A stretch of DNA of 64,000 nt from a virus. Its lineage: Duplodnaviria; Heunggongvirae; Uroviricota; Caudoviricetes. Under the pieces are notes generated by a model, which did not search any database, was not told the DNA's origin, and saw only the letters and a list, made by a program, of their open reading frames with translations. Where the stretch lies: the IMG/VR virus record IMGVR_UViG_3300031787_000010, positions 9,429-73,428 of that record; one strand, written 5' to 3'. Positions within the stretch are counted from its first letter, which is position 1; each line of letters opens with the position of its first letter. Made by a program: the position numbers and the translations under genes. Of this stretch, positions 47,846 through 64,000 are shown one piece after another.

Positions 47846-47874
47846 TTGACAAATAATTGGTTTTTGGGTAAATT
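47846..47874 (+). promoter_or_regulatory. sigma70 promoter
   Basis: TTGACA-17-TAAATT. Confidence 0.65.
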
Positions 47875-47902
47875 TCAATATATCCCAAACCAAGAGGTTT
47901 TT

Positions 47903-48460
47903 GTGAATCAGATTCAGAAGTATATCGATCATTATGAGAACAAACTTTCCCTTGCAGCTTCTTATGCGAAGAAAAATGAAAAGGGATTTGTTCGTTCGAC
48001 GATGGGTGAATTGGTTGAAGGTATGTTGGATTTGATTTGGACGGATGTTGTTGGTGGTTCCTCTAAAAAGAATGACTATGTGGTTTCGAAAAGCACGAGC
48101 GGAATTAAGCTGAAGTTTCAGGTTGATCGACATCTATACACTCCTTCTAACACTCTTGTCGCGTTAGGGGAGTGTAAAGCATATCTTGACCGATGCTTTA
48201 TGGAACGTGCAAGTAGTGATTTTAGTCGAATCACCCGTGGTCTTAAACAGAAACCGGCAACATTTATTCTGGCACTCGAACAAGCTACTGGAAAAGATGC
48301 GTTTCAGTACTATATGGATGAAGGTCATATCGATCATATTTTCTTTTTGTGTGATGGCATTCGTTCACCAAAGAAGCCTATCTGGAATAACAACTTTTAC
48401 AAGCCTATCAATCGTAAGAGTTTGCAATCCTTTGTTTCCTTTATTGAATCAATGAGGTAA
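47903..48460 (+). CDS. PD-(D/E)XK restriction-endonuclease-like protein
   Basis: E...QVD(x12)GECKAY motif; GTG start with SD AAGAGG. Confidence 0.55.
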   Translation: MNQIQKYIDHYENKLSLAASYAKKNEKGFVRSTMGELVEGMLDLIWTDVVGGSSKKNDYVVSKSTSGIKLKFQVDRHLYTPSNTLVALGECKAYLDRCFMERASSDFSRITRGLKQKPATFILALEQATGKDAFQYYMDEGHIDHIFFLCDGIRSPKKPIWNNNFYKPINRKSLQSFVSFIESMR

Positions 48461-48585
48461 TTTATGTTATTCAAAATGGCAATGTTGCTTGTGGGTCTTA
48501 TCTTTATTGTGGCCACGTTCGGTGCTATATATCTTGGGTATGAAAAAAATACAGAAGAGTATAACAATCGTAATAGGAAAGATTT

Positions 48586-48795
48586 ATGAAAACGGTTTTT
48601 ATTGTATTAGGTATTTGGACAATGGTTTCTTTAATATTTTGTTTTGTTATCTGGCCTAGAATTGCAAACCGATTTATTCCAGCAACCAACGATACCTTTA
48701 TCAGATCAAGATGTAGAAAGTGCGGAAATATTCAACGGTGTTGTGCACCGCCTTGTTCAAAGTGTCAGAGTATTGACATGGAAATGCTAAAATAA
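48586..48795 (+). CDS. TM plus Zn-ribbon small protein
   Basis: TM then CRKC...CSKC. Confidence 0.55.
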   Translation: MKTVFIVLGIWTMVSLIFCFVIWPRIANRFIPATNDTFIRSRCRKCGNIQRCCAPPCSKCQSIDMEMLK

Positions 48796-48803
48796 TAGAA
48801 GTT

Positions 48804-48890
48804 GGAAGTGTGGCCGAGTGGTTTAAGGCAGCTGTCTACTAAACAGCCGTGGGATAATACCTACCGTGAGTTCGAATCTCACCGCTTCCG
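48804..48890 (+). tRNA. trnS: tRNA-Ser(ACU)
   Basis: Ser body (long arm, G73); loop CTACTAA. Confidence 0.85.
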
Positions 48891-48914
48891 TACTCATACT
48901 TAAGGAATACACAT

Positions 48915-51755: not shown

Positions 51756-51811
51756 GGTCAAAATGGGGTAAAAATAGGCTAAAATGGGGTAAAATCCCAT
51801 AGGGAGGGGGA

Positions 51812-51875
51812 CGTAAGGCATTGAAAATCATAGCCTTACGTCCCCCTTGACATACCCTATTAAATAGGGTATATT
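51812..51875 (+). promoter_or_regulatory. early promoter with upstream 29-bp palindromic operator
   Basis: CGTAAGGC-N13-GCCTTACG, then TTGACA-17-TATATT. Confidence 0.8.
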
Positions 51876-51909
51876 TCAAGTATCCCTCAAAATAGGACAT
51901 CACCAACGT

Positions 51910-52608
51910 ATGAAGTTGCTCACTATCGGTAACACCAAGACTGTCAAGGGCGAGGCTCTTGGGTATATGACTTTCATCATGCACCTTGCCCCCTCTACTC
52001 TTTCGGGTTATAACACCTGTCCGATGGCCTCCGATGGGTGTGCGGCGGCCTGTCTCAATACGGCGGGTCGTGGTCGTTTCACCGCCACACAGGAGGCCCG
52101 TATCCGCAAGACCAAGTGGTTCTTCGAGGACCGCGAGAGCTTTATGATTCAGCTGGTGAAGGATATCCGAGCCGCTATCCGTAAGGCTAACCGTGAAGGT
52201 ATGATTCCTGTGTTCCGTCTTAACGGTACGTCCGATATCCGTTGGGAGACGGTATCGTTTACCTTTGAAGGTATCGACTTTCGAAACATTATGGAGTTTT
52301 TTGGTAACGTGCGGTTCTATGACTACACCAAGCTTACCAATCGTCGTAACATTCCGTCGAACTATCATCTGACGTTCTCGCGTAGTGAGAGCAACGATGC
52401 GTATGTTACGACGATGTTGAATCGTGGATACAATGTTGCTGTCGTGTTCGACGTTCTCCCCGAGACGTATCTTGGGTACAAGGTCATCGACGGCACCGAG
52501 ACTGACCTGCGGTTCCTCGACGAGAAGAACGTTATCGTCGGACTCATCGCTAAGGGTAAGGCTAAGAAGGACAACAGCGGGTTCACCATTCTTCGTAAGG
52601 CGGCGTAA
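51910..52608 (+). CDS. GP88-like phage protein (Cys-cluster, radical-SAM-like fold)
   Basis: NTCP.AS.GC...CL..AGRG, RLNGTSDI, FYDYTK, YHLTFS, D..D.RF.D. Confidence 0.75.
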   Translation: MKLLTIGNTKTVKGEALGYMTFIMHLAPSTLSGYNTCPMASDGCAAACLNTAGRGRFTATQEARIRKTKWFFEDRESFMIQLVKDIRAAIRKANREGMIPVFRLNGTSDIRWETVSFTFEGIDFRNIMEFFGNVRFYDYTKLTNRRNIPSNYHLTFSRSESNDAYVTTMLNRGYNVAVVFDVLPETYLGYKVIDGTETDLRFLDEKNVIVGLIAKGKAKKDNSGFTILRKAA

Positions 52609-52609
52609 T

Positions 52610-52981
52610 ATGTACCAGACTCACATTCTCACTCCCAACGGGCACAGTATTCCCCGTACCCGATTCACCGCAATTTCCCTTTGGGATATCCTCGACTATA
52701 TGGAGCTTCGTGAGGAGGAAGTAGAAGCCATCAGCGATTTCGGGCTGAGCGAATTGCAGTGGAGTGCTGTTGAACTTCCACTCATCAACAATGTCGTGGC
52801 GCTCGAGTGTATTGTCACAGGGCTTGAGGCATATTACGACGAGCTGATGATGGACGCGGACGAGTATGGTCAGCCGTCTCGTAGTCTCCCCGCTCGTCTC
52901 TATACCCGCAAGGACATCACCGAAATGTTCTGGGCAGTGGTACAGAAAGACGATTACATTAACTTGGAAGGTAACGGATGA
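52610..52981 (+). CDS. hypothetical protein
   Basis: Start adjusted to MYQTH. Confidence 0.6.
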   Translation: MYQTHILTPNGHSIPRTRFTAISLWDILDYMELREEEVEAISDFGLSELQWSAVELPLINNVVALECIVTGLEAYYDELMMDADEYGQPSRSLPARLYTRKDITEMFWAVVQKDDYINLEGNG

Positions 52982-53166
52982 TGCAAGGATTTATCAACGT
53001 GATGACTCTTATCGGTATTCTTTCTGTTGGGGCCCTTGCGGGTATGGTGATGGTTTATATTATGGAGAAATTCTAATGGATTTCGGGCTAAAGATTTTCC
53101 TCATCAGCACGATCGTGATGTTCATTCTGGATAGACTAATCAAATAATAGATAATAATAGAGTCAC

Positions 53167-53195
53167 TTGACAAATCAACCGCACCGTAGTAAATT
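53167..53195 (+). promoter_or_regulatory. sigma70 promoter
   Basis: TTGACA-17-TAAATT. Confidence 0.65.
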
Positions 53196-53220
53196 GCATT
53201 TTCACCTTTTAGGAGTAACA

Positions 53221-53415
53221 ATGACCAACGATTGGCGTAGTCCCCGACAGAAGTTGCAGGATGAGTATATCGCTCGTATTGTGGATAATCTGTCCACTAG
53301 GGAGTTGGTGCAGTACGCATACGATAAGCTGTCGGAGGAGTTGGATGAGTATAGCGATGAGGGACTGACGCAGCAGGTTCAGGATATCTATCCCGACCTT
53401 TTGGAGAATGAGTAA
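53221..53415 (+). CDS. hypothetical protein
   Basis: SD AGGAG; start adjusted to MTNDW. Confidence 0.65.
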   Translation: MTNDWRSPRQKLQDEYIARIVDNLSTRELVQYAYDKLSEELDEYSDEGLTQQVQDIYPDLLENE

Positions 53416-53609
53416 TGAAAAAGCAACTCCCACATCTTTCCGGCCGGCGGCAATGGGTATACACCGCATACAGCCAGCACTATAACTGGTCTACTATTGT
53501 GGTCGCTCGCACGATTCAAGAAGCCCGTCGAGCAGGATATTACGAAGCAAAGAAAGTTTTTGGTAATCACGCTACCCTACAACGAGACAACGTTCGAGAA
53601 CTAGTATGA
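53415..53609 (+). CDS. hypothetical protein
   Basis: Translationally coupled ORF. Confidence 0.55.
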   Translation: MKKQLPHLSGRRQWVYTAYSQHYNWSTIVVARTIQEARRAGYYEAKKVFGNHATLQRDNVRELV

Positions 53610-53767
53610 CCGATCGATATGAGCAGTACGATGACGAATACGACAATCTACCCACGCGTGGCAAGATGTCCAGCAACAAAGAGCGTATGATTAACACTAA
53701 TATGGCTACACTCAAACGCGTCGAAAACGCTCGCAACCGATATGTGAGAGAGGGACTACTAAAGTGA
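53606..53767 (+). CDS. 53-aa hypothetical protein
   Basis: Manual translation; ATGA overlaps at both ends. Confidence 0.5.
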   Translation: MTDRYEQYDDEYDNLPTRGKMSSNKERMINTNMATLKRVENARNRYVREGLLK

Positions 53768-53985
53768 TGACCCGAACTTGTATTAAGTGTAAGACGATTA
53801 TTCCCCGCGATCGGCTCGAGGTACTTCCCGACACACATACGTGCGTTGGATGTAGCGGGGTTCAAAAGTATGTTGGGGCTATGATTTTCGATCATAAGAC
53901 CGCTCCCCGTCTGGCCTATATCCGCCCAGAGAACAAGCAGGCTGTCGAAACACTCAAGCGATTCATTAACCGTTCCAGAAACTAA
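53767..53985 (+). CDS. DksA/TraR C4-type zinc finger protein
   Basis: CIKCKTIIPRDRLEVLPDTHTCVGC. Confidence 0.8.
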   Translation: MTRTCIKCKTIIPRDRLEVLPDTHTCVGCSGVQKYVGAMIFDHKTAPRLAYIRPENKQAVETLKRFINRSRN

Positions 53986-53996
53986 CAGAGGATATT

Positions 53997-54374
53997 ATGA
54001 CTGAAGCAAATACTATTAAGCTTACGGCAGAAGCTAATCACGAAGGATTTGGTCAGACAAGTTTTACCTGCACCGTATCCACCGACACCACACTAGATGA
54101 GCTGATGGATTCTATTCGTCAGCTGGTACTATCGTTGGGATATATGGAAGGTAGTTGGGACAATGTGATTAAGAGTCGCGCTGAAGAACTTAATCACACC
54201 GAGGCTCGTCGAAAGGCACAGAACGTCTATCAGGTTCCCGTGTCGTTCCAGATTAATGCAGAAGATGCAACGATGGCTCGAGAAAAGATGTGGGATGTTC
54301 TAATGGAGATTGAAAAGACTGATCAGATTCCCGACTATTCGATTGGCGTAGCCACCCAACTAGAGCTGTTTTAA
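53997..54374 (+). CDS. hypothetical protein
   Basis: SD GAGG. Confidence 0.6.
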   Translation: MTEANTIKLTAEANHEGFGQTSFTCTVSTDTTLDELMDSIRQLVLSLGYMEGSWDNVIKSRAEELNHTEARRKAQNVYQVPVSFQINAEDATMAREKMWDVLMEIEKTDQIPDYSIGVATQLELF

Positions 54375-54393
54375 AAAATTTTACCCCTAAAAA

Positions 54394-54430
54394 GTTTAGC
54401 CCGTCTACACACGTAGCGGGCTAACTTATT
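54394..54430. terminator. hairpin between convergent genes
   Basis: TTAGCCCG..CTAC-ACAC-GTAG..CGGGCTAA. Confidence 0.65.
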
Positions 54431-54693
54431 TTCTCCATATCTTTTTCCCGTGACGGGGTATAATCGTAGGTTTGTTTCCGTTCCTTCGGTTCCTTACTCT
54501 TGGATTTCTTCGGACGCCCCAATTTCGGACCTGCGACCTCTCCCCGAGCAAAGGCCGCCGCAGATTCCCGGTCCGCAAAGTATCGGACTTGACCGACCGT
54601 GTTGCGTGCTCCATACCGATTGGCATAGGTCCGCCACACGGAACGGTCCTCTTTGTCCCCTAATTCAACGAGTAAATCGACGAGACGAATCAT
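54421..54693 (-). CDS. small basic protein with MIRLVDLLVE leader
   Basis: Start adjusted; Lys-rich tail. Confidence 0.55.
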   Translation of the reverse strand: MIRLVDLLVELGDKEDRSVWRTYANRYGARNTVGQVRYFADRESAAAFARGEVAGPKLGRPKKSKSKEPKERKQTYDYTPSREKDMEKIS

Positions 54694-54697
54694 ACAC

Positions 54698-55144
54698 TTA
54701 TGGACGGGGTGGCCAGAGTCCTTGAACAGCAATAATATAGTTTAATACAAGTGCTGGAGGAAAGTTGTTCGATGGAGCTGGAGTTTTTCCGACCAAGTGT
54801 GATACCGATACGTCCGTACCTGCTGCGGCGGTCACGGGGGTGTTGGACCACGGAAGGTCTAATGCGGTAATCGTGTGTTTATCTTGACCGAAGGATTGAC
54901 CCATATCGTAATGAACTGATGATCCATCAATCGATGTTGTGGTACCTTGTCCGACGATGACCCGCCCGTTCAAGTTGGGGAGAGCAAATGTATTATGACC
55001 ATCGCCACCATAGCGGGTACCTAAAAGGGCAAACAATGCTTGATACTGACCAATCGATAAGAGTTGTCCATTACATAACATCCAGTTCTCTGGGGCATAC
55101 TCAAATGCAACTGTCCGAATTTCTCCAATAAACCAATCACCCAT
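54698..55144 (-). CDS. phage tail-collar domain (MdpB-like) protein
   Basis: FIGEI...AP.NW.LCNGQLL.I..Y.ALFALLGT.YGGDG..TFALP.L.GR. Confidence 0.9.
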   Translation of the reverse strand: MGDWFIGEIRTVAFEYAPENWMLCNGQLLSIGQYQALFALLGTRYGGDGHNTFALPNLNGRVIVGQGTTTSIDGSSVHYDMGQSFGQDKHTITALDLPWSNTPVTAAAGTDVSVSHLVGKTPAPSNNFPPALVLNYIIAVQGLWPPRP

Positions 55145-55209
55145 ATATAACTCCTGTGTACGTGTTAGTAATAAATAGTTTCCACGCATTTCTTTATGAG
55201 GATATTTCT

Positions 55210-55440
55210 ATGATTAAGACGCTATTCCTAGTCCCCCTTGCCGTTCTACTCACTCAAGCTCCACTCCGCAGTTCTGATTTCCGCCATCACTATGAACGAC
55301 AAGTCCAACTGGAAGAGCAACAGTTCCGCCGAGAACTCCAACGCCATCTGGATACATGCCGTCGAGAGGAACAACGAATCAGACGAGAACATCAAGTCCG
55401 TCTCCGCCAGATTCAAGAAATGACCCGACGCCGACCATAA
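55210..55440 (+). CDS. small secreted or membrane helical protein
   Basis: SD GAGG, signal-like N-terminus, Arg/Glu/Gln-rich. Confidence 0.55.
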   Translation: MIKTLFLVPLAVLLTQAPLRSSDFRHHYERQVQLEEQQFRRELQRHLDTCRREEQRIRREHQVRLRQIQEMTRRRP

Positions 55441-55642
55441 TTTCCTATTAGTCCACTTCTCACCATATGACTATACCATATCGTCGGGTTAGGGGTGGCT
55501 TCGAGTCGATAATTTCCCGATACCATAATCTTTATATAAGAAGCGTTCCTATAGGGAAAAAATTGCGCCGCAACGCGAGCGTAGGCTCCCCGCCCCGATT
55601 GTCAAGCCCCCTCGCCCCTAGTTACGAGAAATTATTAGGAGG

Positions 55643-55706
55643 GTAAGTCGTTGGGGCGTCAAGCCTTACGAGGGCACTTGACGATGGCTATTAAATGGGG
55701 TATATT
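55643..55706 (+). promoter_or_regulatory. early promoter with degenerate operator
   Basis: GTAAGTC..TTG..CAA..GCCTTACG, then TTGACG-17-TATATT TCAAGTATCCCTC. Confidence 0.75.
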
Positions 55707-55738
55707 TCAAGTATCCCTCTTCATAGGAGAAGTATCAG

Positions 55739-56035
55739 ATGGCTACGCTCAAGTGTGTGTTTTGCAAGACGCCCCAGACAGCAGACAAGTCGATTCGTGC
55801 GATTCTCTGTGGTTCCTGCACGGCTCGACTGGCTGGGACGCCGGAGCAGATTGGGAAGGCTCCGAAGTCTGCCGTCCCGAAGGTCAAGAAGGTGAAGCGA
55901 GTTGCCAAGCCGAAGGTGGTCAAGGCTACCACAGGGTTTGGTCGTGGGTGGCACCTCAAGAAGCAGTTCACGGCACCCGATGGTACGAAGTACAGCTTCG
56001 GTCAGCCCGTTACCACGAAGAAGCGAGGGAAGTAA
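55739..56035 (+). CDS. Zn-finger basic early protein
   Basis: CVFC...CGSC; GRGWHLKKQF; SD AGGAG. Confidence 0.7.
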   Translation: MATLKCVFCKTPQTADKSIRAILCGSCTARLAGTPEQIGKAPKSAVPKVKKVKRVAKPKVVKATTGFGRGWHLKKQFTAPDGTKYSFGQPVTTKKRGK

Positions 56036-56036
56036 G

Positions 56037-56237
56037 ATGCGTATCATGCGGGATATCGTTCGGGAGTTCTACAGTGGCCCGAATAAGAAGGGGATTCGAT
56101 TCGGGCAGTTCTTTGTGAATCGATATGTGCACCCCAAGTTTCTCCCGTGGCCGGACCTCTACTACTGTGAGGATACGGAATCAGCGATGGAGATGGCACT
56201 GGCATTTCTTCGGACAGGAAAGAAAATCGAGCTATGA
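56037..56237 (+). CDS. hypothetical protein
   Basis: RFGQFF.N...PDLYY pattern; start adjusted. Confidence 0.65.
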   Translation: MRIMRDIVREFYSGPNKKGIRFGQFFVNRYVHPKFLPWPDLYYCEDTESAMEMALAFLRTGKKIEL

Positions 56238-56560
56238 TTAAAGTTTGGTCTACCTACCCGCCGGCCCTCTGGACGGTTCCCGCTACGGGTTCCCTACGGA
56301 TTGCCGGCGGCACCGTCACCCGAGTCCAGGTGGATGGTGTGGATGTGCCGGTGGATAGCGATCTTCCCGAAGGGTTTGACTTGGGATGGCTCGAGTGGCA
56401 GCGTCCAGCAGTCCCCAAGCCCGTCCCACCTCGCACCAAGAAGGTGAAGGGATCGACGGGCAAGATGTACACGCTCACGATGCAACCCAATGGGAAGTGG
56501 TCGTGTGAGTGTCCCGGATACCAGTTTCGACGGTTTTGTAAACACACAGGAGCTAAGTAA
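56234..56560 (+). CDS. SWIM zinc finger protein
   Basis: WSCECPGYQFRRFCKH. Confidence 0.8.
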   Translation: MIKVWSTYPPALWTVPATGSLRIAGGTVTRVQVDGVDVPVDSDLPEGFDLGWLEWQRPAVPKPVPPRTKKVKGSTGKMYTLTMQPNGKWSCECPGYQFRRFCKHTGAK

Positions 56561-56886
56561 TGGAACTTTCTGAACTCAAGGCGTTCGCTCGTCAAGAAGA
56601 GATCGAGATCAATTGGGACAAGCTTGATAGCGATCCCTTCTACGCTGACGATTTCGAGCGGGTAGTGCAGTCCGCAGTGAATCATATTCCCCAGCTCGAA
56701 CAGCTCCATACCAAGCTGACAGCTGGGGAATCGGTAGCCTTCGAGGGTCAGGCTAGCCCGCTGAAGTTTATGGATCTGGAATCGTATCTGTATCTGGTGG
56801 AGACGGAACTATTTGCCGCCTATCAGATTCAAGATGTCCACGAACGATATCACCTCATCAAGTCTATCACGCATCTATCATCTTAA
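56560..56886 (+). CDS. hypothetical protein
   Basis: Coupled ORF. Confidence 0.6.
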   Translation: MELSELKAFARQEEIEINWDKLDSDPFYADDFERVVQSAVNHIPQLEQLHTKLTAGESVAFEGQASPLKFMDLESYLYLVETELFAAYQIQDVHERYHLIKSITHLSS

Positions 56887-56905
56887 ATACCGTTTAATAT
56901 CCCGG

Positions 56906-56934
56906 TTGACTTTCGCCGGATATAAGGGTATATT
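56906..56934 (+). promoter_or_regulatory. sigma70 promoter
   Basis: TTGACT-17-TATATT. Confidence 0.7.
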
Positions 56935-56982
56935 GAATACATCGAGTTTAAACACTAAACACAACTAAACAAGGAAACCAAC

Positions 56983-57411
56983 ATGGAACACGCAATCAAG
57001 TTTGTCGAACTCACCAACGCCTTCGTCTCCGCTCTGCTCAAGGGTAGCAAGTCTGTGGAACGTATTGAGGGGCGCCGGTTTGACCGCATCAAGTGCAACG
57101 ATACCGTCCGCTTCTTCGTGGACCGCAACAGCTGGGAGATTTACGGTGCGAAGTCGAGCTTTCAGTTTAATCCCCGCCGGTGGTATGGGACGCTCGATAG
57201 CGTGGGTCAGTACGATTGGACGCAGGTAGCCCCGACACCGTTGGCCGGTACGTCCGCTGAGCGAATCTTCAATGACCGTGAGGCGGAGATTACCAAGAAC
57301 TATAAGCCCCGTGGTCGTCCCCGTAAGAACCCCGCTCCGGCTCCGAAGGCTAAGGTAGACTCACAGATCACGGACGCCGTAACCACGAAGAAGTCGAGCA
57401 AGAAGGCATAA
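56983..57411 (+). CDS. early protein with AT-hook
   Basis: KPRGRPRK; SD AAGGA. Confidence 0.7.
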   Translation: MEHAIKFVELTNAFVSALLKGSKSVERIEGRRFDRIKCNDTVRFFVDRNSWEIYGAKSSFQFNPRRWYGTLDSVGQYDWTQVAPTPLAGTSAERIFNDREAEITKNYKPRGRPRKNPAPAPKAKVDSQITDAVTTKKSSKKA

Positions 57412-57412
57412 T

Positions 57413-57670
57413 ATGGGACTTATCTTCAAGCGTAAGACGACACCTCCACCGCTTCCGAATGATATCATTGATCACGCTCCACTCATTCCAACGCCCCCAC
57501 AGCATCTGCTCGGGGGATCTGATGTGAACCTAATTCGTATGGTGGAAGAGAACGCTCCACGGCGTATTCACGAGATTGACAGCACCGTGACCGATCTCCA
57601 GGCTCGTATTGATAAGATGTTGGCGGAACGAAAGAAGCTCGAACGTCTCCTTACCGCACTCACGGAGTAA
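57413..57670 (+). CDS. hypothetical protein
   Basis: ORF with C-terminal coiled coil. Confidence 0.55.
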   Translation: MGLIFKRKTTPPPLPNDIIDHAPLIPTPPQHLLGGSDVNLIRMVEENAPRRIHEIDSTVTDLQARIDKMLAERKKLERLLTALTE

Positions 57671-57672
57671 CT

Positions 57673-57882
57673 ATGTCTGATGTTATCGCTGGTATACTGG
57701 CACTGGTGGCAATGATGTTCGGGTTGGTTCTACTACTGGCCTTCCCGACGATGTGGACCTGGAACTTTCTGATGCCGGACCTCTTCAATCTTCCCACGAT
57801 CGATCTCTGGCAGGCTGTCGCTATCAACTTCTTGTCCACGATTCTGTTCAAGAGCGTGTCGTTCAATAGTAACAATAAGTAA
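57673..57882 (+). CDS. 2-TM membrane protein
   Basis: MW.WN.LMP.LF.LP.I..WQA pattern. Confidence 0.7.
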   Translation: MSDVIAGILALVAMMFGLVLLLAFPTMWTWNFLMPDLFNLPTIDLWQAVAINFLSTILFKSVSFNSNNK

Positions 57883-57888
57883 CTAAAT

Positions 57889-57925
57889 AGATCCCCGCAC
57901 GGTACTCCCCTGCGGGGATCTCTTT
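57889..57925 (+). terminator. intrinsic terminator
   Basis: AGATCCCCGCA/TGCGGGGATCT plus CTTT. Confidence 0.75.
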
Positions 57926-58009
57926 ATAAGGTACCACAAACCCGAACGAAAACCGAAGAAAAAACCCGAATAAACCCCGAAAACTGGGGATCCGTCCCGA
58001 GGGGGTGCG

Positions 58010-58072
58010 CATAAGGCTATGATTTTCAATGCCTTACGCCCCCTTGACATGGGGGTTTTAATTGGTTAATAT
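58010..58072 (+). promoter_or_regulatory. early promoter with operator (spacer inverted relative to 51812)
   Basis: CATAAGGC-TATGATTTTCAAT-GCCTTACG, then TTGACA-17-TAATAT. Confidence 0.8.
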
Positions 58073-58080
58073 TAGGGAGT

Positions 58081-58194
58081 GGTTCGGGAACGACGGTTCC
58101 TGACCCCATCGGAACGCCAAAACCGATGGCTGATTGAAAACCGAAGGTTGAACGTGTGACGGGTCCGATGTCCATTCCGGACCCGTGTGACACG
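58081..58194 (+). ncRNA. four-hairpin leader or small RNA
   Basis: Stems at 58081-58105, 58106-58129, 58139-58149, 58153-58194. Confidence 0.45.
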
Positions 58195-58206
58195 ATGTAG
58201 GACCAC

Positions 58207-58278
58207 GGCCCTATCGTCTATCGGTTAGGACGCGACCCTTTCAAGGTCGAGAGACGGGTTCGATTCCCGTTAGGGCTA
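58207..58278 (+). tRNA. trnE: tRNA-Glu(UUC), early-region copy
   Basis: Loop CTTTCAA. Confidence 0.93.
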
Positions 58279-58317
58279 CTCACCAAATACCACACCACAA
58301 CACAAGGACAACAACGT

Positions 58318-58554
58318 ATGAAGTACAACTACAAGATCGTCGTCGAAATTCCCCGCGAGATTCGCACTCGCAACTCCACCGACATCACGGTGGACACCTT
58401 CACCTCGTTTGTTTACAATCGAAAGAACAAGGAGTCCGCTCTTCGGGCCTTCGGTTCCGTAGAGAACCTTCGGAACCTTCGAAAGCACGGGTTCAAGCTC
58501 TCCCGTTCGGAGTTCAAGAAGTTCCGTAATCACTTCCTCATCGAGCGAGTCTAA
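58318..58554 (+). CDS. hypothetical protein
   Basis: ORF with strongly biased codons. Confidence 0.65.
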   Translation: MKYNYKIVVEIPREIRTRNSTDITVDTFTSFVYNRKNKESALRAFGSVENLRNLRKHGFKLSRSEFKKFRNHFLIERV

Positions 58555-58748
58555 TGAGTAACTTTCAGAAACATCGTCTAGAGTACATCTATCTCAATAA
58601 CCTTCGTGAGTCTGGCGTCACCAATATGTTCGGTGCGACTCCCTATCTCGAAGAGGATTTCGATATCGGTAGAAAAGAGGCCAAGGCAATCTTAATGGGT
58701 TGGATGGCTTGGGTGAATGAAAATCCTTCTAATGTCAATCTCTACTAA
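58554..58748 (+). CDS. conserved small phage protein
   Basis: YL..LRESG.TNMFGA.PYL pattern. Confidence 0.7.
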   Translation: MSNFQKHRLEYIYLNNLRESGVTNMFGATPYLEEDFDIGRKEAKAILMGWMAWVNENPSNVNLY

Positions 58749-58924
58749 TGGCACTCTTCTACAATCCGACAATCAAACGTAAACCGAAGCCGATGAGTAA
58801 GACGGCTCAAATGAAAAATCTCCGTGAACTCCGCAAGGCAATCAAGGAGATAGGACAGTACGACAAACATCTCGCTGATGCGATGATGAACGCAGTGGAC
58901 ATTCTCTCAAAGGAAACCAAGTAA
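58748..58924 (+). CDS. 58-aa hypothetical protein
   Basis: Manual translation MALFYNPTIK...; coupled. Confidence 0.5.
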   Translation: MALFYNPTIKRKPKPMSKTAQMKNLRELRKAIKEIGQYDKHLADAMMNAVDILSKETK

Positions 58925-58925
58925 G

Positions 58926-59333
58926 ATGGCGTATATGAATCAGGACCGAAAGAAGAAGATCGCTGAGAAGGTGAAGCCGATTCTCAAGAAGTACGGCGTC
59001 AAGGGGTCGCTCAAGACTGACCGACTCAGCATCACGCTAACCATCAAGTCTGGTCCGATTGACTTCATCGGTGATTTGAATACTGACCGTCCTAATCGTA
59101 TGGCTCTCTCCAAGGATGAACTCCGAAAGCACTATTCGCTTGATGTCAATCCCTACTGGTTCCAAGAGCACTACAATGGTGAGAGTTATCACTTCCTAAA
59201 GGAAGTCATCACCGCTCTCAAGTCGGGCGATTGGTACGACAATAGTGACGCTCAGATTGACTACTTCGACACCGCCTACTACTACCACGTTAACGTTGGT
59301 AACTGGCAGACGCCCTACACCATCACCAAGTAA
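58926..59333 (+). CDS. conserved phage early protein
   Basis: MAYMNQ.RKK.IA...WYDNSDAQIDYFDTAYY. Confidence 0.7.
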   Translation: MAYMNQDRKKKIAEKVKPILKKYGVKGSLKTDRLSITLTIKSGPIDFIGDLNTDRPNRMALSKDELRKHYSLDVNPYWFQEHYNGESYHFLKEVITALKSGDWYDNSDAQIDYFDTAYYYHVNVGNWQTPYTITK

Positions 59334-59347
59334 GAGGAAACAACACA

Positions 59348-59557
59348 ATGGCTCGTATTCATTCGACTATCACGTTCGACCAGCTCATCGAGGCTGTAGA
59401 GTCCGGCGAGGACATGGGGTTCTGTATCGCCTGTGGTGCTGAGCACTACGGGATTGAGCCGGACGCTCGACGCTACGAGTGTGAAGAGTGTGACCTTCCC
59501 AAAGTGTACGGGGCTGAGGAGCTCCTGATGGTGCTCCACCCGACCGCTCAAGTCTAA
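59348..59557 (+). CDS. Zn-ribbon protein
   Basis: GFCIACG...EPDARRYECEEC...VYGAEEL. Confidence 0.75.
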   Translation: MARIHSTITFDQLIEAVESGEDMGFCIACGAEHYGIEPDARRYECEECDLPKVYGAEELLMVLHPTAQV

Positions 59558-59579
59558 CCAAACCAACACGGAGAACAGC

Positions 59580-59681
59580 ATGACCAAGACTATCGAAGAG
59601 CGCATCAACGACATCCTCCGCCGTGAGGATCTCTCCTACGAGGAGAAGCGGTCCCTTATCGACGGTGTTCTGGGCCGATAA
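59580..59681 (+). CDS. 33-aa hypothetical protein
   Basis: SD GGAG; manual translation. Confidence 0.45.
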   Translation: MTKTIEERINDILRREDLSYEEKRSLIDGVLGR

Positions 59682-59682
59682 T

Positions 59683-60006
59683 ATGAACACCATCGAAACC
59701 GCCATCACGAACTACGCCACGCTTCTCCAGAACACTCTTCGAGAGCGTGACCGACAGATGAATCACAACTTCGATGAGCGTGTAGAGCTCCAACGTGGTT
59801 CGAAGTACACGAAGGTCGTTGTCGCTGGTGACAGTAACCGGTCGGTTCACTCCTTCATTGAGAATAAGACGGGCAATCTCTTGAAGGCCGCCAGTTGGAA
59901 GGCTCCCGCTAAGGGCGTTCGATTTAACCTTCTCTCTGATATGGACGAGCTCCAGAATCGGATTGACCCCTATGGTTCTTACCTCTACAAGATTACCATC
60001 CGATGA
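59683..60006 (+). CDS. conserved phage early protein
   Basis: KY.KVV...SVH.FI...TG.LLKAASWKAPAKGVRFNL; start adjusted. Confidence 0.75.
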   Translation: MNTIETAITNYATLLQNTLRERDRQMNHNFDERVELQRGSKYTKVVVAGDSNRSVHSFIENKTGNLLKAASWKAPAKGVRFNLLSDMDELQNRIDPYGSYLYKITIR

Positions 60007-60149
60007 CCAACGCTGAATACAAGCAGATTATGAAGGAAGCCAAGAAAGAGTTCAACGATTGGCTGAAAGAGAACAAGAAGGAGCGGGCTCGTGTGAAGAA
60101 GGCAGCACTCAAGATTCGGAAAGCCACCCTTAAGTCCCGAGGCAAGTAA
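60003..60149 (+). CDS. 48-aa basic protein
   Basis: Manual translation; coupled. Confidence 0.5.
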   Translation: MTNAEYKQIMKEAKKEFNDWLKENKKERARVKKAALKIRKATLKSRGK

Positions 60150-60325
60150 TGGACATCGATGATTTCGACACGCAGGTGCAATGTGAGGAAGTGTATGACA
60201 GTTGGTTGAATGAATCGGCAAATGTAATGAATGATGTACGGAACCCAACCCCAGAACCCGCTCGAGAGTATGACCCGGCCGGCGATGGATGGGGTATTGA
60301 CGATGTAGATCTAATGTTAGGATAA
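60149..60325 (+). CDS. 58-aa acidic protein
   Basis: Manual translation; coupled. Confidence 0.45.
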   Translation: MDIDDFDTQVQCEEVYDSWLNESANVMNDVRNPTPEPAREYDPAGDGWGIDDVDLMLG

Positions 60326-60374
60326 TGGTACGACGAGGATTATCCCTAGACCTCGCTAAATATTAGGGGTACAT

Positions 60375-60446
60375 GCACCGTTAGCTCAATGGTAGAGCAA
60401 GTGGCTTTTAACCTCTAGGTTCTGGGTTCGAGTCCCAGGCGGTGCA
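60375..60446 (+). tRNA. trnK: tRNA-Lys(UUU), early-region copy with U29.U41 mismatch
   Basis: Anticodon arm AGTGG-CTTTTAA-CCTCT. Confidence 0.9.
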
Positions 60447-60479
60447 CTTCACTTTACATCACTTCTTCCAAAAGGATAT

Positions 60480-61022
60480 ATGACCAAGGCTTTTCTTCGT
60501 CGCCGTAACGAGTTTGACGCCCAGACCAAGGGTGACCTTCTGTTCCGTGTGTGGCTGGGGGTCGATTTCGTCGAGTCTATTCAGGACGAGACGGAACGTA
60601 CTAACTTCTTCAAGTGGTACGGCACCCCACCGCGGTTCATCACGGACAGTCTCCGCCAGTGGGGTGGGCTGACGCCGAAGCAGTATGAGTTCGCTCGTCG
60701 GAAGTTCACCGAAGCCACGATCTCCGGTCGTCAGCGGTGGGAGGCTCGAGAGAGTCAGAAGCAGCACCTGATCCAGAATAACTACATCTGGACCAAGGAA
60801 CGCCGGCAGGTCACGCTCGAGATTCTCGCCATCAAGGAGCGGATGTTCGGTCCCAAGATTCTGGGTCAGACGCCCGAAGGGATGAAGCTCTGGGTGAGTC
60901 TCCCGAATGGGTCCAACGCTCAGAAGGGCAACACCATCACGATGACGGTCACCATTACCCCATCAGAGGACGATCCGACCTTCGCGTTCGGTTCCCGTCC
61001 GAGCAAGTGGGCGGTACGATAA
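60480..61022 (+). CDS. hypothetical protein
   Basis: DF..SI......G.LT.KQ motif and OB-like C-terminus. Confidence 0.65.
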   Translation: MTKAFLRRRNEFDAQTKGDLLFRVWLGVDFVESIQDETERTNFFKWYGTPPRFITDSLRQWGGLTPKQYEFARRKFTEATISGRQRWEARESQKQHLIQNNYIWTKERRQVTLEILAIKERMFGPKILGQTPEGMKLWVSLPNGSNAQKGNTITMTVTITPSEDDPTFAFGSRPSKWAVR

Positions 61023-61053
61023 AATGACAATCAACTCCTGGAGGAGCTAGAAG

Positions 61054-61320
61054 ATGTTTAAGATTACCCGTGGTTCGGGGTTTCAGATGACGTTCGGCAA
61101 TGGTTGGACGGTCAGTGTCCAGTGGGGTGCCTGCACGTATTCGTCCAACTACGGTCAACTGATTGGAACGAAGTGTGAGAAGGCCAATTCCGCTGAGATT
61201 GCCGCCTGGGACGCGGCACGGAACTGGTACAAGTTCGAAGATGGTGACACCGTGAAGGGCTACTGCACTACTGGTGATGTGGCAGCCTTTATTACTCTCA
61301 TCTCCAACATGGAGCCCTAA
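61054..61320 (+). CDS. conserved phage protein
   Basis: GFQMTF.NGWTVSVQW...AEIA.W. Confidence 0.7.
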   Translation: MFKITRGSGFQMTFGNGWTVSVQWGACTYSSNYGQLIGTKCEKANSAEIAAWDAARNWYKFEDGDTVKGYCTTGDVAAFITLISNMEP

Positions 61321-61321
61321 T

Positions 61322-61531
61322 ATGATGCCTGTTCATCGCTTTCAGTATCGCACGGGATACCCCGCACATATGACCGTCCCGCAGTTCGAGAAAGCCTGCG
61401 ATATCGCTCATCGTTTTAATCTTCCTCATACCATTACCGTCAGCTCCCCGCTGGGCTTTCCCGATGAGTTTCTCATTGACGTTGGCAGTATGGTAATCGC
61501 TGTTCTCCCCGATGGTTCAAGTCACTCCTAA
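61322..61531 (+). CDS. hypothetical protein
   Basis: SD GGAG; start adjusted. Confidence 0.6.
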   Translation: MMPVHRFQYRTGYPAHMTVPQFEKACDIAHRFNLPHTITVSSPLGFPDEFLIDVGSMVIAVLPDGSSHS

Positions 61532-61544
61532 TACGGTACCCAAC

Positions 61545-61856
61545 ATGAATTACGATCTCCTTTGGCAGTTGCGCAATCAGGCCTCCGACGACATCCGCAT
61601 CAAGATGGATCAGCTCATCAACGAGCGATATATGGAGCTCCTCGAACAGGAAGTGCTGTCACTCCGTGCTACACTCCTCCACACGCCGGCCCCGAAGTCG
61701 GACGTTTCCAATCTCCAGACGTTGATTGGCACCCTCCGCAATACCAATCTCTCCCGATTGGACAAGATCAAGATTGTCCGTGCCGCATTCAATCTCGGGC
61801 TGGTCGAGGCCCGTAACGCCGTGGACAACGATCCGGGTGAAGATCTTCCCTTTTAA
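61545..61856 (+). CDS. protein with C-terminal ribosomal bL12 (L7/L12) CTD-like motif
   Basis: DKIKIVRAAFNLGLVEARNAVD. Confidence 0.6.
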   Translation: MNYDLLWQLRNQASDDIRIKMDQLINERYMELLEQEVLSLRATLLHTPAPKSDVSNLQTLIGTLRNTNLSRLDKIKIVRAAFNLGLVEARNAVDNDPGEDLPF

Positions 61857-61968
61857 TATGACCATGTATATCCGATATAATCCCCGCAGGGGGTTCACGC
61901 ACCCGCTCGTCACGCTGGTGCGTCTCCTCACCCAACGATACCGCACCACATACGGCCGGTAATCAATC

Positions 61969-62004
61969 AACCCCATCTGGCACTTCCGCCAGGTGGGGTT
62001 TTTT
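61969..62004 (+). terminator. intrinsic terminator ending the early block
   Basis: AACCCCATCTGG/CCAGGTGGGGTT plus U-tract. Confidence 0.8.
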
Positions 62005-62009
62005 CTTGC

Positions 62010-62410
62010 CTGCCGGCGGCGTGATAAAACGCTACCCTCGAACGATGATAAAACATATTCCTATATAGTCATATGTGTATAGCCTTTCGTATGTATATCG
62101 TCATCGTTTGCGGGCACCCTTACTACCACACATGTATATAATCATCCTTCAGCCATTACACCAGCACGTATACATCACGCACCCCATATGTACCACGCCA
62201 CACCATACCACAACGATGATAAAACATAGCCCTCTCCGCCCCCACGTTCCCCACACGCCCCACGTTGTGTAGCGTGTGGGACGCCGTGTAACGTGGTGTG
62301 GCGTGTGGTGGGCCGGCACGAACAACGGCTCCCAGCGTGTGGAACGTTGGGAACCGCTCGTAGAAGGGGGCGCAGTCGAGCGCCTATAGGGCTAGGCGTC
62401 TCTCTAGGAA
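62010..62410. repeat. non-coding direct-repeat and palindrome cluster
   Basis: AACGATGATAAAACATA at 62041 and 62212 (partial copy at 62021); nested inverted repeats 62242-62400. Confidence 0.7.
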
Positions 62411-62417
62411 AAAGTGC

Positions 62418-62615
62418 TTACTCCGCGATGGGGAGGCTAGTGCCATCGAGGTTTTGACTATGGGTAAGCAAGCGTTCCGTCAGCTGTTGAACCTGCTCCG
62501 TCACATAGTCTAATGAGATTGTATGTGATGGGGTATCCGTAGGTTCATCATGGAAAAAGTCATAGAGATCCATGCCTTGCGCTTCTTGATATCGGAGTAG
62601 TGTGTGTTCATCCAT
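62418..62615 (-). CDS. hypothetical protein
   Basis: ORF. Confidence 0.45.
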   Translation of the reverse strand: MDEHTLLRYQEAQGMDLYDFFHDEPTDTPSHTISLDYVTEQVQQLTERLLTHSQNLDGTSLPIAE

Positions 62616-62640
62616 TCGTGGGGTCCATTAGGGTAAGGGG

Positions 62641-63300
62641 TCAATCGGGATTATAGAGGGCTTCCAATTCCTCGGGCGTGAGGGTGACATCGGAAGTCGG
62701 GAGATCGTCGGAGGGGTCAATCGCATCGGCCGGGATGGGGTCGGTATCATAGTGTCGAGTATATGGTGGGAGATCCGCACGGAGTGAACGTTCCATATAT
62801 CCCCTGTACACGACACTTGGTGCTCCAGTAGTGAGGAACATACAGTTATAACAGCGGAGTTCCAGGTTGTCCAGTTGCATATGACTACGGTTGCCATCCT
62901 TGAATGATAACATCAGGGGGACTTTTCCATCCGTAATGCGGCGTTCGTGGAATCCACAGAGTGCGCAGTGTTCTGATAGTTTCTGTCTGGCGATGAGTCT
63001 ATTCTTCAGTTTGCTGAGACTATAGGTAGGATGTTTGCCCGACAAGATATCACGGAGCGGGATACTGGTTGGCTTCTTGCCAAACCCTTTATCAATCCCG
63101 ACGCCCCGCACGTTCAAGTGCCCGGCGAACAACCCGTATAACTCCGCATATTGTTTATAGCGTTTATACGGGACATTGAGATACTTGGCGGCTTGGCTAT
63201 TACTCTTCGTGTGCCGTTGTGCTTCTTCGATTTCGGCACGGAGAATCGGTTTCGCAGGTGGGCGTCCACCGGTTGGGGCATTGGGATTCTTAATCGTCAT
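62641..63300 (-). CDS. HTH plus degenerate HNH-like protein
   Basis: KLKNRL...CALCG...LSFKDGN...NLELRCYNC. Confidence 0.65.
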   Translation of the reverse strand: MTIKNPNAPTGGRPPAKPILRAEIEEAQRHTKSNSQAAKYLNVPYKRYKQYAELYGLFAGHLNVRGVGIDKGFGKKPTSIPLRDILSGKHPTYSLSKLKNRLIARQKLSEHCALCGFHERRITDGKVPLMLSFKDGNRSHMQLDNLELRCYNCMFLTTGAPSVVYRGYMERSLRADLPPYTRHYDTDPIPADAIDPSDDLPTSDVTLTPEELEALYNPD

Positions 63301-63446
63301 AACTGGTTCTTTCCATAGGGTACGATCAAGCGGTATATGAGCAACACGCTTGAAATTCGTGGGGTCAAAAATTTTTTAAAAACGCCTGGTGAATATTGGT
63401 GTATACTTGTTTATATATGTATTAAGGTTGCCCGACAAAATACGAT

Positions 63447-63999
63447 CTAATAGTTGAGAGTTGAGGGTGAATGTAGATGTATCGGGATGTTGAGTTGTTC
63501 AAGATAGATTCGAAGGTACCCCGTTGGTTGGTGAAGGTTTTCAGCAACACGCACCGGCCAGTAACGACAAGCGTATTCAAATCGTGGATATAGTAGTGAA
63601 TATTCTCGTATCAAGTCAAACGAACCGACAGCGAGATGGTCATCAAAGTCTTGCTCTTGGTCATATCCAGCTCGAACATTTATCGCGTCTTCGACTATTG
63701 ATTCATACTCAATATGTCGTGGAACAATATCAGGTCTACCCATCATCACTATATCATAAGTAATATTATGGGTTCGTGCATATAGATTACACAAGTCAAA
63801 TACCTTCCATCGTTTATACCACATCGAAAGAAAAGCAATCATATGTTCACGATGCATCCCCTTCATACTTTCGACATATGGATCGTATGGAGTCGATAAT
63901 CGATAATAGGACCATAACGGTTGAATTTGTTCTGCAAACCTTTCATAAAATGTTGGGTAAAACGGTTCTATTTCTACGTCAATGAATCCTCTAGTCTTT
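63447..63999 (-). CDS. putative glycosyltransferase-like protein (paralog family of 45634), starts outside the window
   Basis: Frame is open to the window edge; SMWYK...YDIVMMGRPD...DD..A.GS. Confidence 0.55.
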   Translation of the reverse strand, partial: KTRGFIDVEIEPFYPTFYERFAEQIQPLWSYYRLSTPYDPYVESMKGMHREHMIAFLSMWYKRWKVFDLCNLYARTHNITYDIVMMGRPDIVPRHIEYESIVEDAINVRAGYDQEQDFDDHLAVGSFDLIREYSLLYPRFEYACRYWPVRVAENLHQPTGYLRIYLEQLNIPIHLHSPSTLNY

Positions 64000-64000
64000 A

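What the first reader, a model, noticed from the sequence alone, without database searches (positions are those of the whole stretch)
51812..58049. Palindromic operator before three early promoters, with its 13-bp core flipped between copies
Seen: 51812 CGTAAGGC-ATTGAAAATCATA-GCCTTACG; 58010 CATAAGGC-TATGATTTTCAAT-GCCTTACG, whose core is the exact reverse complement; 55643 GTAAGTC-GTTGGGGCGTCAA-GCCTTACG. Each ends 5-7 nt before a TTGAC(A/G) -35, and I did not see it at other promoters in the window. Inference: binding site for a dimeric regulator of the earliest genes, or a recombinase-type site (arms around an asymmetric core) whose core has inverted.
Basis: partly seen in the sequence, partly recalled or inferred. 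Interest (0 to 1): 0.75.

Follow-up and report, generated by a model that had tools for sequence, protein, structure and literature searches.

The report
Palindromic hairpin before phage early promoters
A large lake phage puts the same roughly 43-base palindrome directly in front of five of its host-type promoters; this is a promoter-plus-hairpin cassette of a kind known from T4-like phages, built on a widespread IHF-like DNA motif, and the "flipped core" looks like a copying accident at hairpins, not a genetic switch.

Summary
The arms extend to perfect 13-15 bp stems around a 13-nt loop. The 166.6-kb virus record has five copies: three in the window and two just beyond it, facing leftward. 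Each ends 4-7 nt before a sigma70-type -35. All lie in a 50% GC, ORFan-rich region of a 36-40% GC phage, and the outermost two mark its edges.

Related phages carry orthologous cassettes at the same promoters. They keep TAAG...CTTA, the 13-nt spacer and the distance to -35, but have lineage-specific arm letters and loops in either orientation. Module order differs between relatives.

The ancestral left half is a 21-mer found exactly in at least 120 viral contigs and 50 mostly Burkholderiales genomes. Its complement fits the IHF consensus perfectly.

Best reading: a PeSL-like promoter/stem-loop cassette grown from an IHF-type site by template switching, which also explains the perfect arms and flipped loops. 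Contigs from three independent lakes show one orientation only, and the record has no recombinase gene. A dedicated dimeric regulator is not excluded.

This scan had already noted the two outside copies (e1-1841782) and PeSL-like cassettes on other genomes.

The parts
51760..51794 (+). Two copies of AAAATGGGGTAAAA 21 bp apart. They give A-tracts phased at about 10.5 bp upstream of cassette U1, so the DNA here is possibly curved.
   Evidence: Read directly. No function was tested.
51805..51847 (.). U1 palindrome/hairpin: perfect 15-bp arms (core CGTAAGGC/GCCTTACG plus a G-run/C-run extension) around the 13-nt loop ATTGAAAATCATA.
   Evidence: The RNA fold is -38.4 kcal/mol, z -7.5.
51847..51875 (+). 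U1 promoter: TTGACA, 17 nt, TATATT (11 of 12 to consensus). The spacer contains the palindrome CTATT-A-AATAG.
   Evidence: The orthologous promoter in relative REL is about 76% identical.
51910..52608 (+). First gene of the GC-rich region: a GP88-family protein (PF17338). It is preceded by a cassette in three phages.
55643..55670 (.). U2, a decayed or hybrid copy. The 5' arm GTAAGTC is of the relatives' type, the 3' arm GCCTTACG is of this phage's type, and there is no stable fold.
   Evidence: A co-occurring strain has an intact palindrome at this promoter (loose end at L009:5105).
55678..55706 (+). U2 promoter: TTGACG, 17 nt, TATATT. It is followed by a 98-aa zinc-ribbon-like ORF at 55739-56035.
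57889..57921 (+). Separate canonical terminator-like hairpin (11-bp stem, T-rich tail), 85 nt upstream of U3.
58001..58043 (.). U3 palindrome/hairpin: G-run, CATAAGGC, loop TATGATTTTCAAT (the reverse complement of the U1 loop), GCCTTACG, C-run. It has one A.C mismatch and a small bulge.
   Evidence: The fold is -31.5 kcal/mol, z -3.4.
58038..58072 (+). U3 promoter: TTGACA, 17 nt, TAATAT. The same C-run can instead pair with GGGGG just after the -35, giving a hairpin with the -35 in its loop, followed by TTTTAATT.
   Evidence: One search lists it both as a promoter and as a terminator-like site.
58207..58279 (+). tRNA-Glu(UUC), the first gene downstream of U3. It duplicates a tRNA type of the main tRNA array.
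51850..64000 (.). GC-rich (about 50%) region of small ORFan genes. It runs on beyond the window to genome 78,011. Its right part holds U4 (genome 75591-75629, between the VWA and MoxR genes) and U5 (genome 77969-78011, the right edge), both driving leftward genes.
   Evidence: GC step within about 200 bp of U1 and U5.

Best explanation
The palindromes are the stem-loop halves of five promoter/stem-loop cassettes (PeSL type). These cassettes punctuate the phage's GC-rich, hyperplastic early-gene region.

Each cassette has four parts in order: a G-run; an arm, 13-nt loop and arm; a C-run; and a sigma70-type promoter.

The core descends from an asymmetric, IHF-consensus motif that sat just upstream of the -35. 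I infer that template switching at the nascent inverted repeat copied one half onto the other, lengthened the arms into the promoter's C-run, and from time to time inverted the loop. That would account for the perfect arms and for the exact flip between U1 and U3.

Inferred function:
- On duplex DNA the element is a bend or binding site at about -57 that helps host RNA polymerase at early promoters.
- In read-through RNA or single-stranded DNA the hairpin insulates each unit from upstream transcription.
- The hairpin also serves as a hotspot for exchange between cassettes.

Loop orientation carries no information. It is a mutational by-product tolerated because the element is nearly symmetric.
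For: Shown:
- Five copies exist, all 4-7 nt before a -35 that scores 9-11 of 12, and only inside the 50% GC region. U1 and U5 sit at its two edges facing inward.
- The stems are strong: -29 to -38 kcal/mol, z -3.4 to -7.5.
- Relatives carry orthologous cassettes before the same genes, namely the GP88-like gene, the 98-aa gene, tRNA-Glu and MoxR. A 178-kb relative has four more, and two further contigs have one each.
- Across the cassettes found in five phage records, TAAG...CTTA, the 13-nt spacer and a 6-9 nt CTTA-to-TTGAC distance are kept.
- Covariation: 81% of cells are paired, 6 of 14 pairs change on both sides, and the score is 0.312 against 0.189 shuffled (0 of 500) and 0.04-0.13 when slid.
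- Module order differs between this phage and relative REL: the U1 and U2 modules are swapped and VWA-MoxR is inverted, with cassettes at module borders.
- A co-occurring strain joins a U2-type promoter to the GP88-like gene.
- Loops are inverted relative to orthologues at U1 and U4, and in the co-occurring strain.
- The ancestral 21-mer's complement fits WATCAANNNNTTR at 9 of 9 positions. Its secondary copies vary only at the N positions. It lies in classic IHF settings: tRNA ends, upstream of terS, a repeat-element end, and a conserved hemE-priA spacer.

From papers:
- The PeSL definition includes a stem-loop upstream of -35 with polyG/polyC tracts (PMC2839356).
- Template switching homogenises inverted-repeat arms and inverts spacers (PMC8604942 and PMC8794818).
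Against: - None of the five hairpins has a U-tract, and the loop is long, so none is a canonical intrinsic terminator.
- U3 is already preceded by a canonical terminator.
- Within each genome the arm letters are uniform while loops and outer stems differ. In this phage, U1 against U4 shows 0 of 16 arm differences and 5 of 13 loop differences. This is also what co-evolution with a sequence-specific protein would give.
- In one relative the 3' arm ends in G in all copies without pairing. That is sequence conservation, not structure conservation.
- This phage's own copies match the IHF consensus only 6-8 of 9, and one relative's copy not at all.
- Template switching creates compensatory pairs without selection, so covariation is weaker evidence than usual.
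- Nothing here measures transcription, termination or binding.
- Whether the phage is T4-type was not established.
Confidence: 0.5

Rival explanations
1. The main function is on duplex DNA. The element is a binding and bending site for a host architectural protein (IHF or similar) that activates the adjacent promoter. The hairpin potential is incidental.
For: - The 21-mer half-site is identical in 65 unrelated flank families from phages and mostly Burkholderiales genomes.
- Its complement matches the IHF consensus 9 of 9, with variation only at the N positions.
- The distance to -35 and the spacer length are constant in all cassettes.
- U1 is preceded by phased A-tracts.
- The phage encodes no HU/IHF of its own.
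Against: - This phage's own copies have drifted from the consensus (6-8 of 9), while the arms were lengthened to 13-15 perfect pairs with covarying outer stems.
- Such long, perfectly paired arms are unnecessary for IHF.
- One relative's GP88 cassette has no WATCAA at all.
- The host is unknown.
Confidence: 0.25
2. The element is the operator of a phage-encoded dimeric regulator of early genes.
For: - The half-sites are invariant, the centre-to-centre spacing is 21 bp, and the position relative to -35 is fixed.
- The arm letters change in concert within each phage lineage: GTAAGGC here, GTAAGTT in REL, and ...CTTAG in G001. Operators that co-evolve with a repressor or activator do this.
Against: - No DNA-binding domain was found in about 30 neighbouring ORFs.
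- The site lies upstream of the core promoter and not over it.
- Degenerate copies (U2 and REL's GP88 copy) keep intact promoters.
- The outer stems covary although their sequence is free.
- The half-site is shared with many unrelated phages and bacteria.
Confidence: 0.12
3. The palindromes have no function of their own. They are neutral products of template switching at a chance inverted repeat next to promoters.
For: Template switching alone yields perfect arms, arm growth and loop inversion. U2 and one REL copy are decaying.
Against: The element is retained at orthologous promoters in at least four diverged phages, with constant geometry. It is absent from about 35 other promoters of the same genome.
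Confidence: 0.08
4. The element is a site-specific recombination site or invertible switch whose asymmetric core sets the orientation.
For: It has arms around an asymmetric core. U1 and U3 have identical cores in opposite orientation. Gene order differs between relatives.
Against: - A 13-bp core fits no known recombinase class (my own knowledge).
- 21 bp is too short for synapsis within one site (my own knowledge).
- The record has no integrase, resolvase or Y1 transposase gene.
- Contigs from three independent runs show only one orientation and one arrangement of this phage.
Confidence: 0.03

Closest known systems
PeSL (promoter-early stem-loop) cassettes of T4-type phages RB49/phi1 (Arbiol et al. 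2010, PMC2839356)
   Same: - A strong sigma70-like promoter is joined to a stem-loop with polyG/polyC tracts.
- One PeSL subclass has the stem-loop upstream of -35.
- The cassettes are intergenic, lie before ORFans in a hyperplastic region, and sit at the borders of shuffled modules.
- Other promoters of this phage have stems enclosing -35 or -10, like other PeSL subclasses.
   Different: - Here the stem has an invariant core, a fixed 13-nt loop and a fixed distance to -35.
- These features are conserved across diverged phages.
- The core derives from an IHF-like motif.
- Terminator activity and mini-circles were not tested.
- T4-type membership of the phage is not established.
BIME-1 / RIB elements of E. 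coli: two inverted REPs around a linker carrying an IHF site, at 3' ends of transcription units (Boccard & Prentki 1993, as cited in PMC3333891)
   Same: An IHF-consensus sequence sits between inverted palindromic arms. The elements are extragenic, lie at the end of one transcription unit, and are repeated in the genome.
   Different: - The present element is much shorter.
- It is fused to a promoter.
- It has only five copies.
- It is in a phage.
- There is no REP-associated Y1 transposase.
IHF-stimulated phage early promoters (lambda pL, Mu Pe); recalled from memory, not checked here
   Same: An IHF-type site lies just upstream of a sigma70 early promoter of a phage.
   Different: Those sites are asymmetric and not hairpins. 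Binding here is untested.
Template-switch mutations at inverted repeats, including spacer inversions (PMC8604942, PMC8794818)
   Same: Perfectly homogenised arms, outward growth of the arms, and exact inversion of the spacer between copies and between orthologues.
   Different: This is a mutational mechanism, not a functional class. It explains the flip but not why the element is kept.
loxP/FRT-type sites and Hin/Gin-type invertible switches
   Same: Inverted arms flank an asymmetric centre.
   Different: The core is 13 bp, there is no recombinase gene, and no orientation polymorphism was seen.

Membership tests
PeSL cassette | Strong sigma70-like promoter | tested here: met
   TTGACA/G/T, 17 nt, then TATATT, TAATAT, TAGATT or TACATT; 9-11 of 12 matches. 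This is by sequence only.
PeSL cassette | Stable stem-loop, often polyG...polyC, next to or overlapping the promoter | tested here: met
   13-15 bp stems with G-run/C-run ends, -29 to -38 kcal/mol. U2 is decayed.
PeSL cassette | Intergenic, in a hyperplastic region, before genes of unknown function | tested here: met
   All five lie in the 50% GC region of small ORFans. The region is mosaic among co-occurring strains.
PeSL cassette | Stem-loop terminates or attenuates transcription | not testable with these tools
   There is no U-tract.
PeSL cassette | Recombination between cassettes shuffles modules | tested here: inconclusive
   Module order and orientation differ from relative REL, with cassettes at module borders. 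One strain-level promoter swap was seen. Breakpoints were not mapped to the base.
PeSL cassette | Host genome is a T4-type phage | tested here: inconclusive
   Baseplate wedge, family-B-like polymerase, RNR and about 30 tRNAs are present. The Gp23 Pfam model gave no hit, but its controls were also silent.
IHF binding site | Match to WATCAANNNNTTR with an A/T-rich 5' flank | tested here: inconclusive
   9 of 9 in the ancestral 21-mer, REL, G003 and the co-occurring strain. Only 8 of 9 on both strands in U1/U3, 7 of 9 in U4, 6 of 9 in U5, and poor in U2 (read).
IHF binding site | Bound and bent by IHF; host has IHF | not testable with these tools
   The host is unknown. The 21-mer occurs mostly in Burkholderiales and some Gammaproteobacteria.
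Operator of a dimeric regulator | Inverted half-sites with fixed spacing | tested here: met
   TAAG...CTTA with a 13-nt loop in all cassettes.
Operator of a dimeric regulator | Cognate DNA-binding protein encoded by the element's genome | tested here: not met
   No HTH or other DNA-binding family was found in about 30 neighbouring ORFs. ORFans could hide one.
Site-specific recombination site or invertible switch | Core of 2 or 6-8 bp, recombinase gene, both orientations in a population | tested here: not met
   The core is 13 bp. PF00589, PF00239 and PF01797 are absent. Contigs of three runs show one orientation (contigs can miss rare variants).
Intrinsic terminator | GC-rich stem, 3-8 nt loop, U-tract | tested here: not met
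   The stem is present, but the loop is 13 nt and no U-tract follows. The scan did not list the five hairpins.

The most novel reading that the evidence does not exclude
The TAAGT-NN-TTGA half-site, identical as a 21-mer in more than 170 phage and Burkholderiales loci, is the high-affinity target of one widely shared DNA-bending or DNA-binding factor. That factor could be IHF or an unrecognised protein. This phage group has turned the half-site into a portable, orientation-independent palindromic module that both boosts early promoters and directs exchange of gene cassettes.
Probability: 0.2. Interest if true: 0.7.

Novelty: new variant of a known kind. Interest (0 to 1): 0.45.

Why it matters
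If the reading holds, it shows step by step how a promoter-plus-hairpin cassette arises. An asymmetric host-factor site next to a promoter becomes a palindrome through template switching, and is then extended into a stable hairpin using the promoter's own C-run.

It offers a natural series for testing what the hairpin adds to a phage early promoter: a weak palindrome in relatives and a 15-bp stem here.

It also exposes a 21-nt motif conserved letter for letter across many freshwater phages and Burkholderiales genomes. No held paper contains it. It could be a useful marker of host range or of a host factor that phages exploit.

For annotation, it warns that flipped cores in palindromes need not mean an invertible switch.

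Tried and rejected
- The exact own palindrome (8+13+8) in IMG/VR gave 7 loci. All are one unrelated locus family without a promoter, and my rough estimate is that about this many are expected by chance.
- A metagenome scan for hairpin plus CTTGAC gave 7 unrelated hits.
- The promoter 20-mer in IMG/VR gave none.
- Megablast against GenBank phages gave none. Distant blastn found only tRNA and one hypothetical gene.
- Related-locus searches with the VWA protein, the left flanking 285-aa protein and the 98-aa protein gave nothing useful.
- Rfam found only the two tRNAs in the 20-kb region.
- Full-text search for the 15-mers of the motif gave no paper.
- Raw-read run X21 laid no reads on the phage, so it was no test of rare flipped loops.
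- GP88-like protein as a possible regulator: the AlphaFold model (pLDDT 88) is a beta/alpha partial barrel with three invariant Cys. It has only weak matches (QueE, E 0.4) and does not look DNA-binding.
- Considered by eye and dropped: N4-type hairpin promoters (those have a 3-nt loop and a different polymerase); T4 MotA box (wrong position); Fur box (U1 loop only); integron attC; dif; NtcA and CRP sites.
- Chimeric assembly of the GC-rich region is rejected. Contigs from three other lake runs bridge both edges with 0-1 differences.
- A recent foreign insertion is unlikely, because relative REL has the same GC-rich modules.


Full report
WHAT IS THERE

The window is bases 9,429-73,428 of a 166,598-bp linear virus record, estimated 89% complete. 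The three quoted sites are present as written. GCCTTACG occurs 7 times in the window against 1.08 expected.

U1 (window 51805-51847) is a perfect 15-bp stem around a 13-nt loop. With the two outside copies it is among the longest perfect short-loop palindromes in the genome.

A whole-genome scan adds two copies just beyond the window. U4 is at genome 75591-75629, between a VWA gene and a MoxR ATPase gene. U5 is at genome 77969-78011. In both, the TTGAC lies on the minus strand.

In promoter orientation every unit reads: G-run, CGTAAGGC, 13 nt, GCCTTACG, C-run, TTGAC(A/G/T), 17 nt, TA-rich hexamer. U2 is decayed: 6 of 8 bases match in its 5' arm, it has no outer stem and no stable fold. About 35 other sigma70-like sites in the genome lack the element.

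SETTING

The phage is 36-40% GC, but genome 61.3-78.0 kb is about 50% GC. The step falls within about 200 bp of U1 on the left and U5 on the right, and their promoters point inward.

The region holds mostly small ORFs without family matches. It also holds a GP88-family gene, a DUF7717 gene, an HNH endonuclease, MoxR, VWA and two tRNAs that duplicate types of the main tRNA array.

Contigs from three other lake metagenomes (different studies, 2017-2025) bridge both edges and all five hairpins with 0-1 differences. The region is therefore not an assembly chimera.

RELATIVES

A 23.9-kb IMG/VR contig (REL, held as loci L154 plus L018) shares near-identical tRNAs, backbone genes, and VWA/MoxR at 70% nucleotide identity.

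REL has four cassettes: GTAAGTT, 13 nt, G(A/G)(C/T/G)TTA(C/G), C-run, TTGAC. They stand before the orthologues of the genes served by U4, U2, U1 and U3.

A 177,878-bp relative (G001, 99% complete) has four more, including one before its GP88 homologue. Two further contigs have one each.

Across the cassettes found in five phage records, three things are kept: TAAG...CTTA, the 13-nt loop, and a CTTA-to-TTGAC distance of 6-9 nt.

The arm letters are lineage-specific. They are GTAAGGC/GCCTTAC here, GTAAGTT/GACTTAC in REL, and ...ACTTAG in G001. The G-C to T-A change is compensatory.

Over nine aligned copies, 81% of cells pair and 6 of 14 pairs change on both sides. The covariation score is 0.312, against 0.189 for shuffles (0 of 500 reach it) and 0.04-0.13 for slid controls.

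THE FLIP

The loops of U1 and U3 are exact reverse complements. Compared with their orthologues in REL, the U1 and U4 loops are inverted, while the U2 and U3 loops are direct.

A co-occurring related phage in two runs carries, before its U2-type -35, an A-rich version of the palindrome that is inverted relative to the REL type (loose end at L009:5105).

The U1/U3 loops are identical (one inverted) and the U4/U5 loops match 12 of 13, although their promoters' spacers are unrelated. Hairpin sequence has therefore moved between cassettes independently of the promoters.

Papers describe template switching between inverted-repeat arms as producing exactly this triad: arm homogenisation, arm expansion and spacer inversion (PMC8604942, PMC8794818, PMC13100816).

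No orientation polymorphism appears in contigs of three runs, though contigs can hide rare variants and the raw-read run had no coverage. The record has no integrase, resolvase or Y1 transposase. I conclude that the flip is a mutational by-product and not a switch.

ORIGIN OF THE CORE

It also occurs in 50 species genomes, mostly Comamonadaceae and other Burkholderiales plus some Gammaproteobacteria.

Among the 130 loci held it lies in 65 unrelated flank families, usually without a complementary right arm.

Its complement contains AATCAACAACTTA. This is a 9-of-9 match to the IHF consensus WATCAANNNNTTR (consensus as in PMC10380432 and PMC9452768), preceded by an A/T tract. Secondary copies vary only at the N positions.

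Its contexts are the classic IHF ones:
- beside tRNA 3' ends;
- about 120 nt upstream of a small-terminase gene, near contig ends;
- 17 nt from the end of a four-copy repeat in one Burkholderia genome;
- next to DnaA-box-like and iteron-like repeats;
- in the hemE-priA spacer of 16 Comamonadaceae genomes.

No held paper contains the motif. This phage's own copies match the consensus only 6-8 of 9.

INTERPRETATION

The anatomy matches the published definition of PeSLs. These are strong sigma70-like early promoters joined to stem-loops with polyG/polyC tracts. One subclass has the stem-loop upstream of -35. They are concentrated before ORFans in hyperplastic regions and implicated in modular shuffling (PMC2839356).

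Four observations fit that picture:
- Module order differs between this phage and REL: the U1 and U2 modules are swapped and VWA-MoxR is inverted.
- A strain-level promoter swap was seen.
- Other promoters have stems enclosing -35 (U3, genome 66334, REL's VWA promoter).
- Still others have stems enclosing -10: 11 of 41 sites against 13.5% of random positions.

What goes beyond PeSLs is the invariant core, the fixed spacer and phasing, and the descent from an IHF-like site. E. coli BIME-1/RIB elements, which have an IHF site between inverted REPs at operon ends, are a second parallel (PMC3333891).

UNSETTLED

I cannot tell whether the element works mainly as a hairpin, as a duplex binding site, or as both.
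- Against a pure terminator: there is no U-tract, the loop is 13 nt, a canonical terminator already precedes U3, and the distance to -35 is constant.
- Against a pure IHF site: this phage's own copies have a decayed consensus but greatly lengthened, covarying stems.
- A phage-specific dimeric regulator would explain the lineage-specific arm letters, but no candidate gene was found.

No tool here measures binding or transcription.

EARLIER NOTES

This scan had already described U4 and U5 as a PeSL-like hairpin-promoter cassette (e1-1841782). I agree.

I correct one point in that note. The phage's own palindrome is not widespread; the IMG/VR hits are at about the number I would expect by chance. 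Its ancestral half-site is widespread.

A note on another genome judged a similar GC-rich early block to be native (e1-1864328). The comparison with REL supports the same conclusion here.

Noticed in passing
L104-L183 and L224-L273 (motif positions listed): A 21-nt motif, GTAAGTTGTTGATTTNTAAGG, is identical in at least 120 viral contigs and 50 mostly Burkholderiales genomes, in 65 unrelated contexts. Its complement matches the IHF consensus perfectly. No held paper contains it. It deserves its own study.
   Followed up: partly
window 51910-52608: The GP88-family protein (PF17338) is the first gene after U1. The AlphaFold model (pLDDT 88) is a beta/alpha partial barrel with invariant C37, C44 and C48. 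Only weak fold matches were found (radical-SAM QueE, E 0.4). It may be an Fe-S enzyme; its function is unknown.
   Followed up: partly
window 51760-51794: AAAATGGGGTAAAA occurs twice with a 21-bp period. This gives four A-tracts phased at about 10.5 bp just upstream of the U1 hairpin, so the DNA may be intrinsically curved.
   Followed up: no
whole genome, for example genome 98750(-), 119131(-), 46135(+), 40264(-): Many sigma70-like promoters have 6-9 bp inverted repeats that enclose the -10 hexamer. Stems of 5 bp or more occur at 11 of 41 sites, against 13.5% of random positions.
   Followed up: partly
window 58207-58279 and 60375-60447: The GC-rich region carries its own tRNA-Glu(UUC) and tRNA-Lys(UUU). 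These duplicate types already present in the 28-tRNA array at window 38291-48891. A tmRNA lies at 28817-29154.
   Followed up: no
L009:13840-18011 (genome 73840-78011) against L154:3342-7476: The VWA-MoxR block, with its cassette between the two genes, is inverted and relocated relative to the related phage contig REL. REL's VWA promoter has the -35 inside the loop of a 9-bp hairpin instead of the TAAG palindrome.
   Followed up: partly
L009 (genome 60001-80000), runs X13 and X14: A second, more abundant related phage (depth about 80 against 27-45) shares only patches of the GC-rich region. It differs by many indels and one promoter swap (joint 5149 to 1333). The region is mosaic within single lakes.
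   Followed up: no
L225-L273 subset (16 Comamonadaceae genomes): The hemE-priA intergenic spacer holds the exact 21-mer. About 60 nt downstream it also holds a related palindrome of the form AGCCTTGA-TTT-TCAAGGCT, conserved across genera.
   Followed up: no
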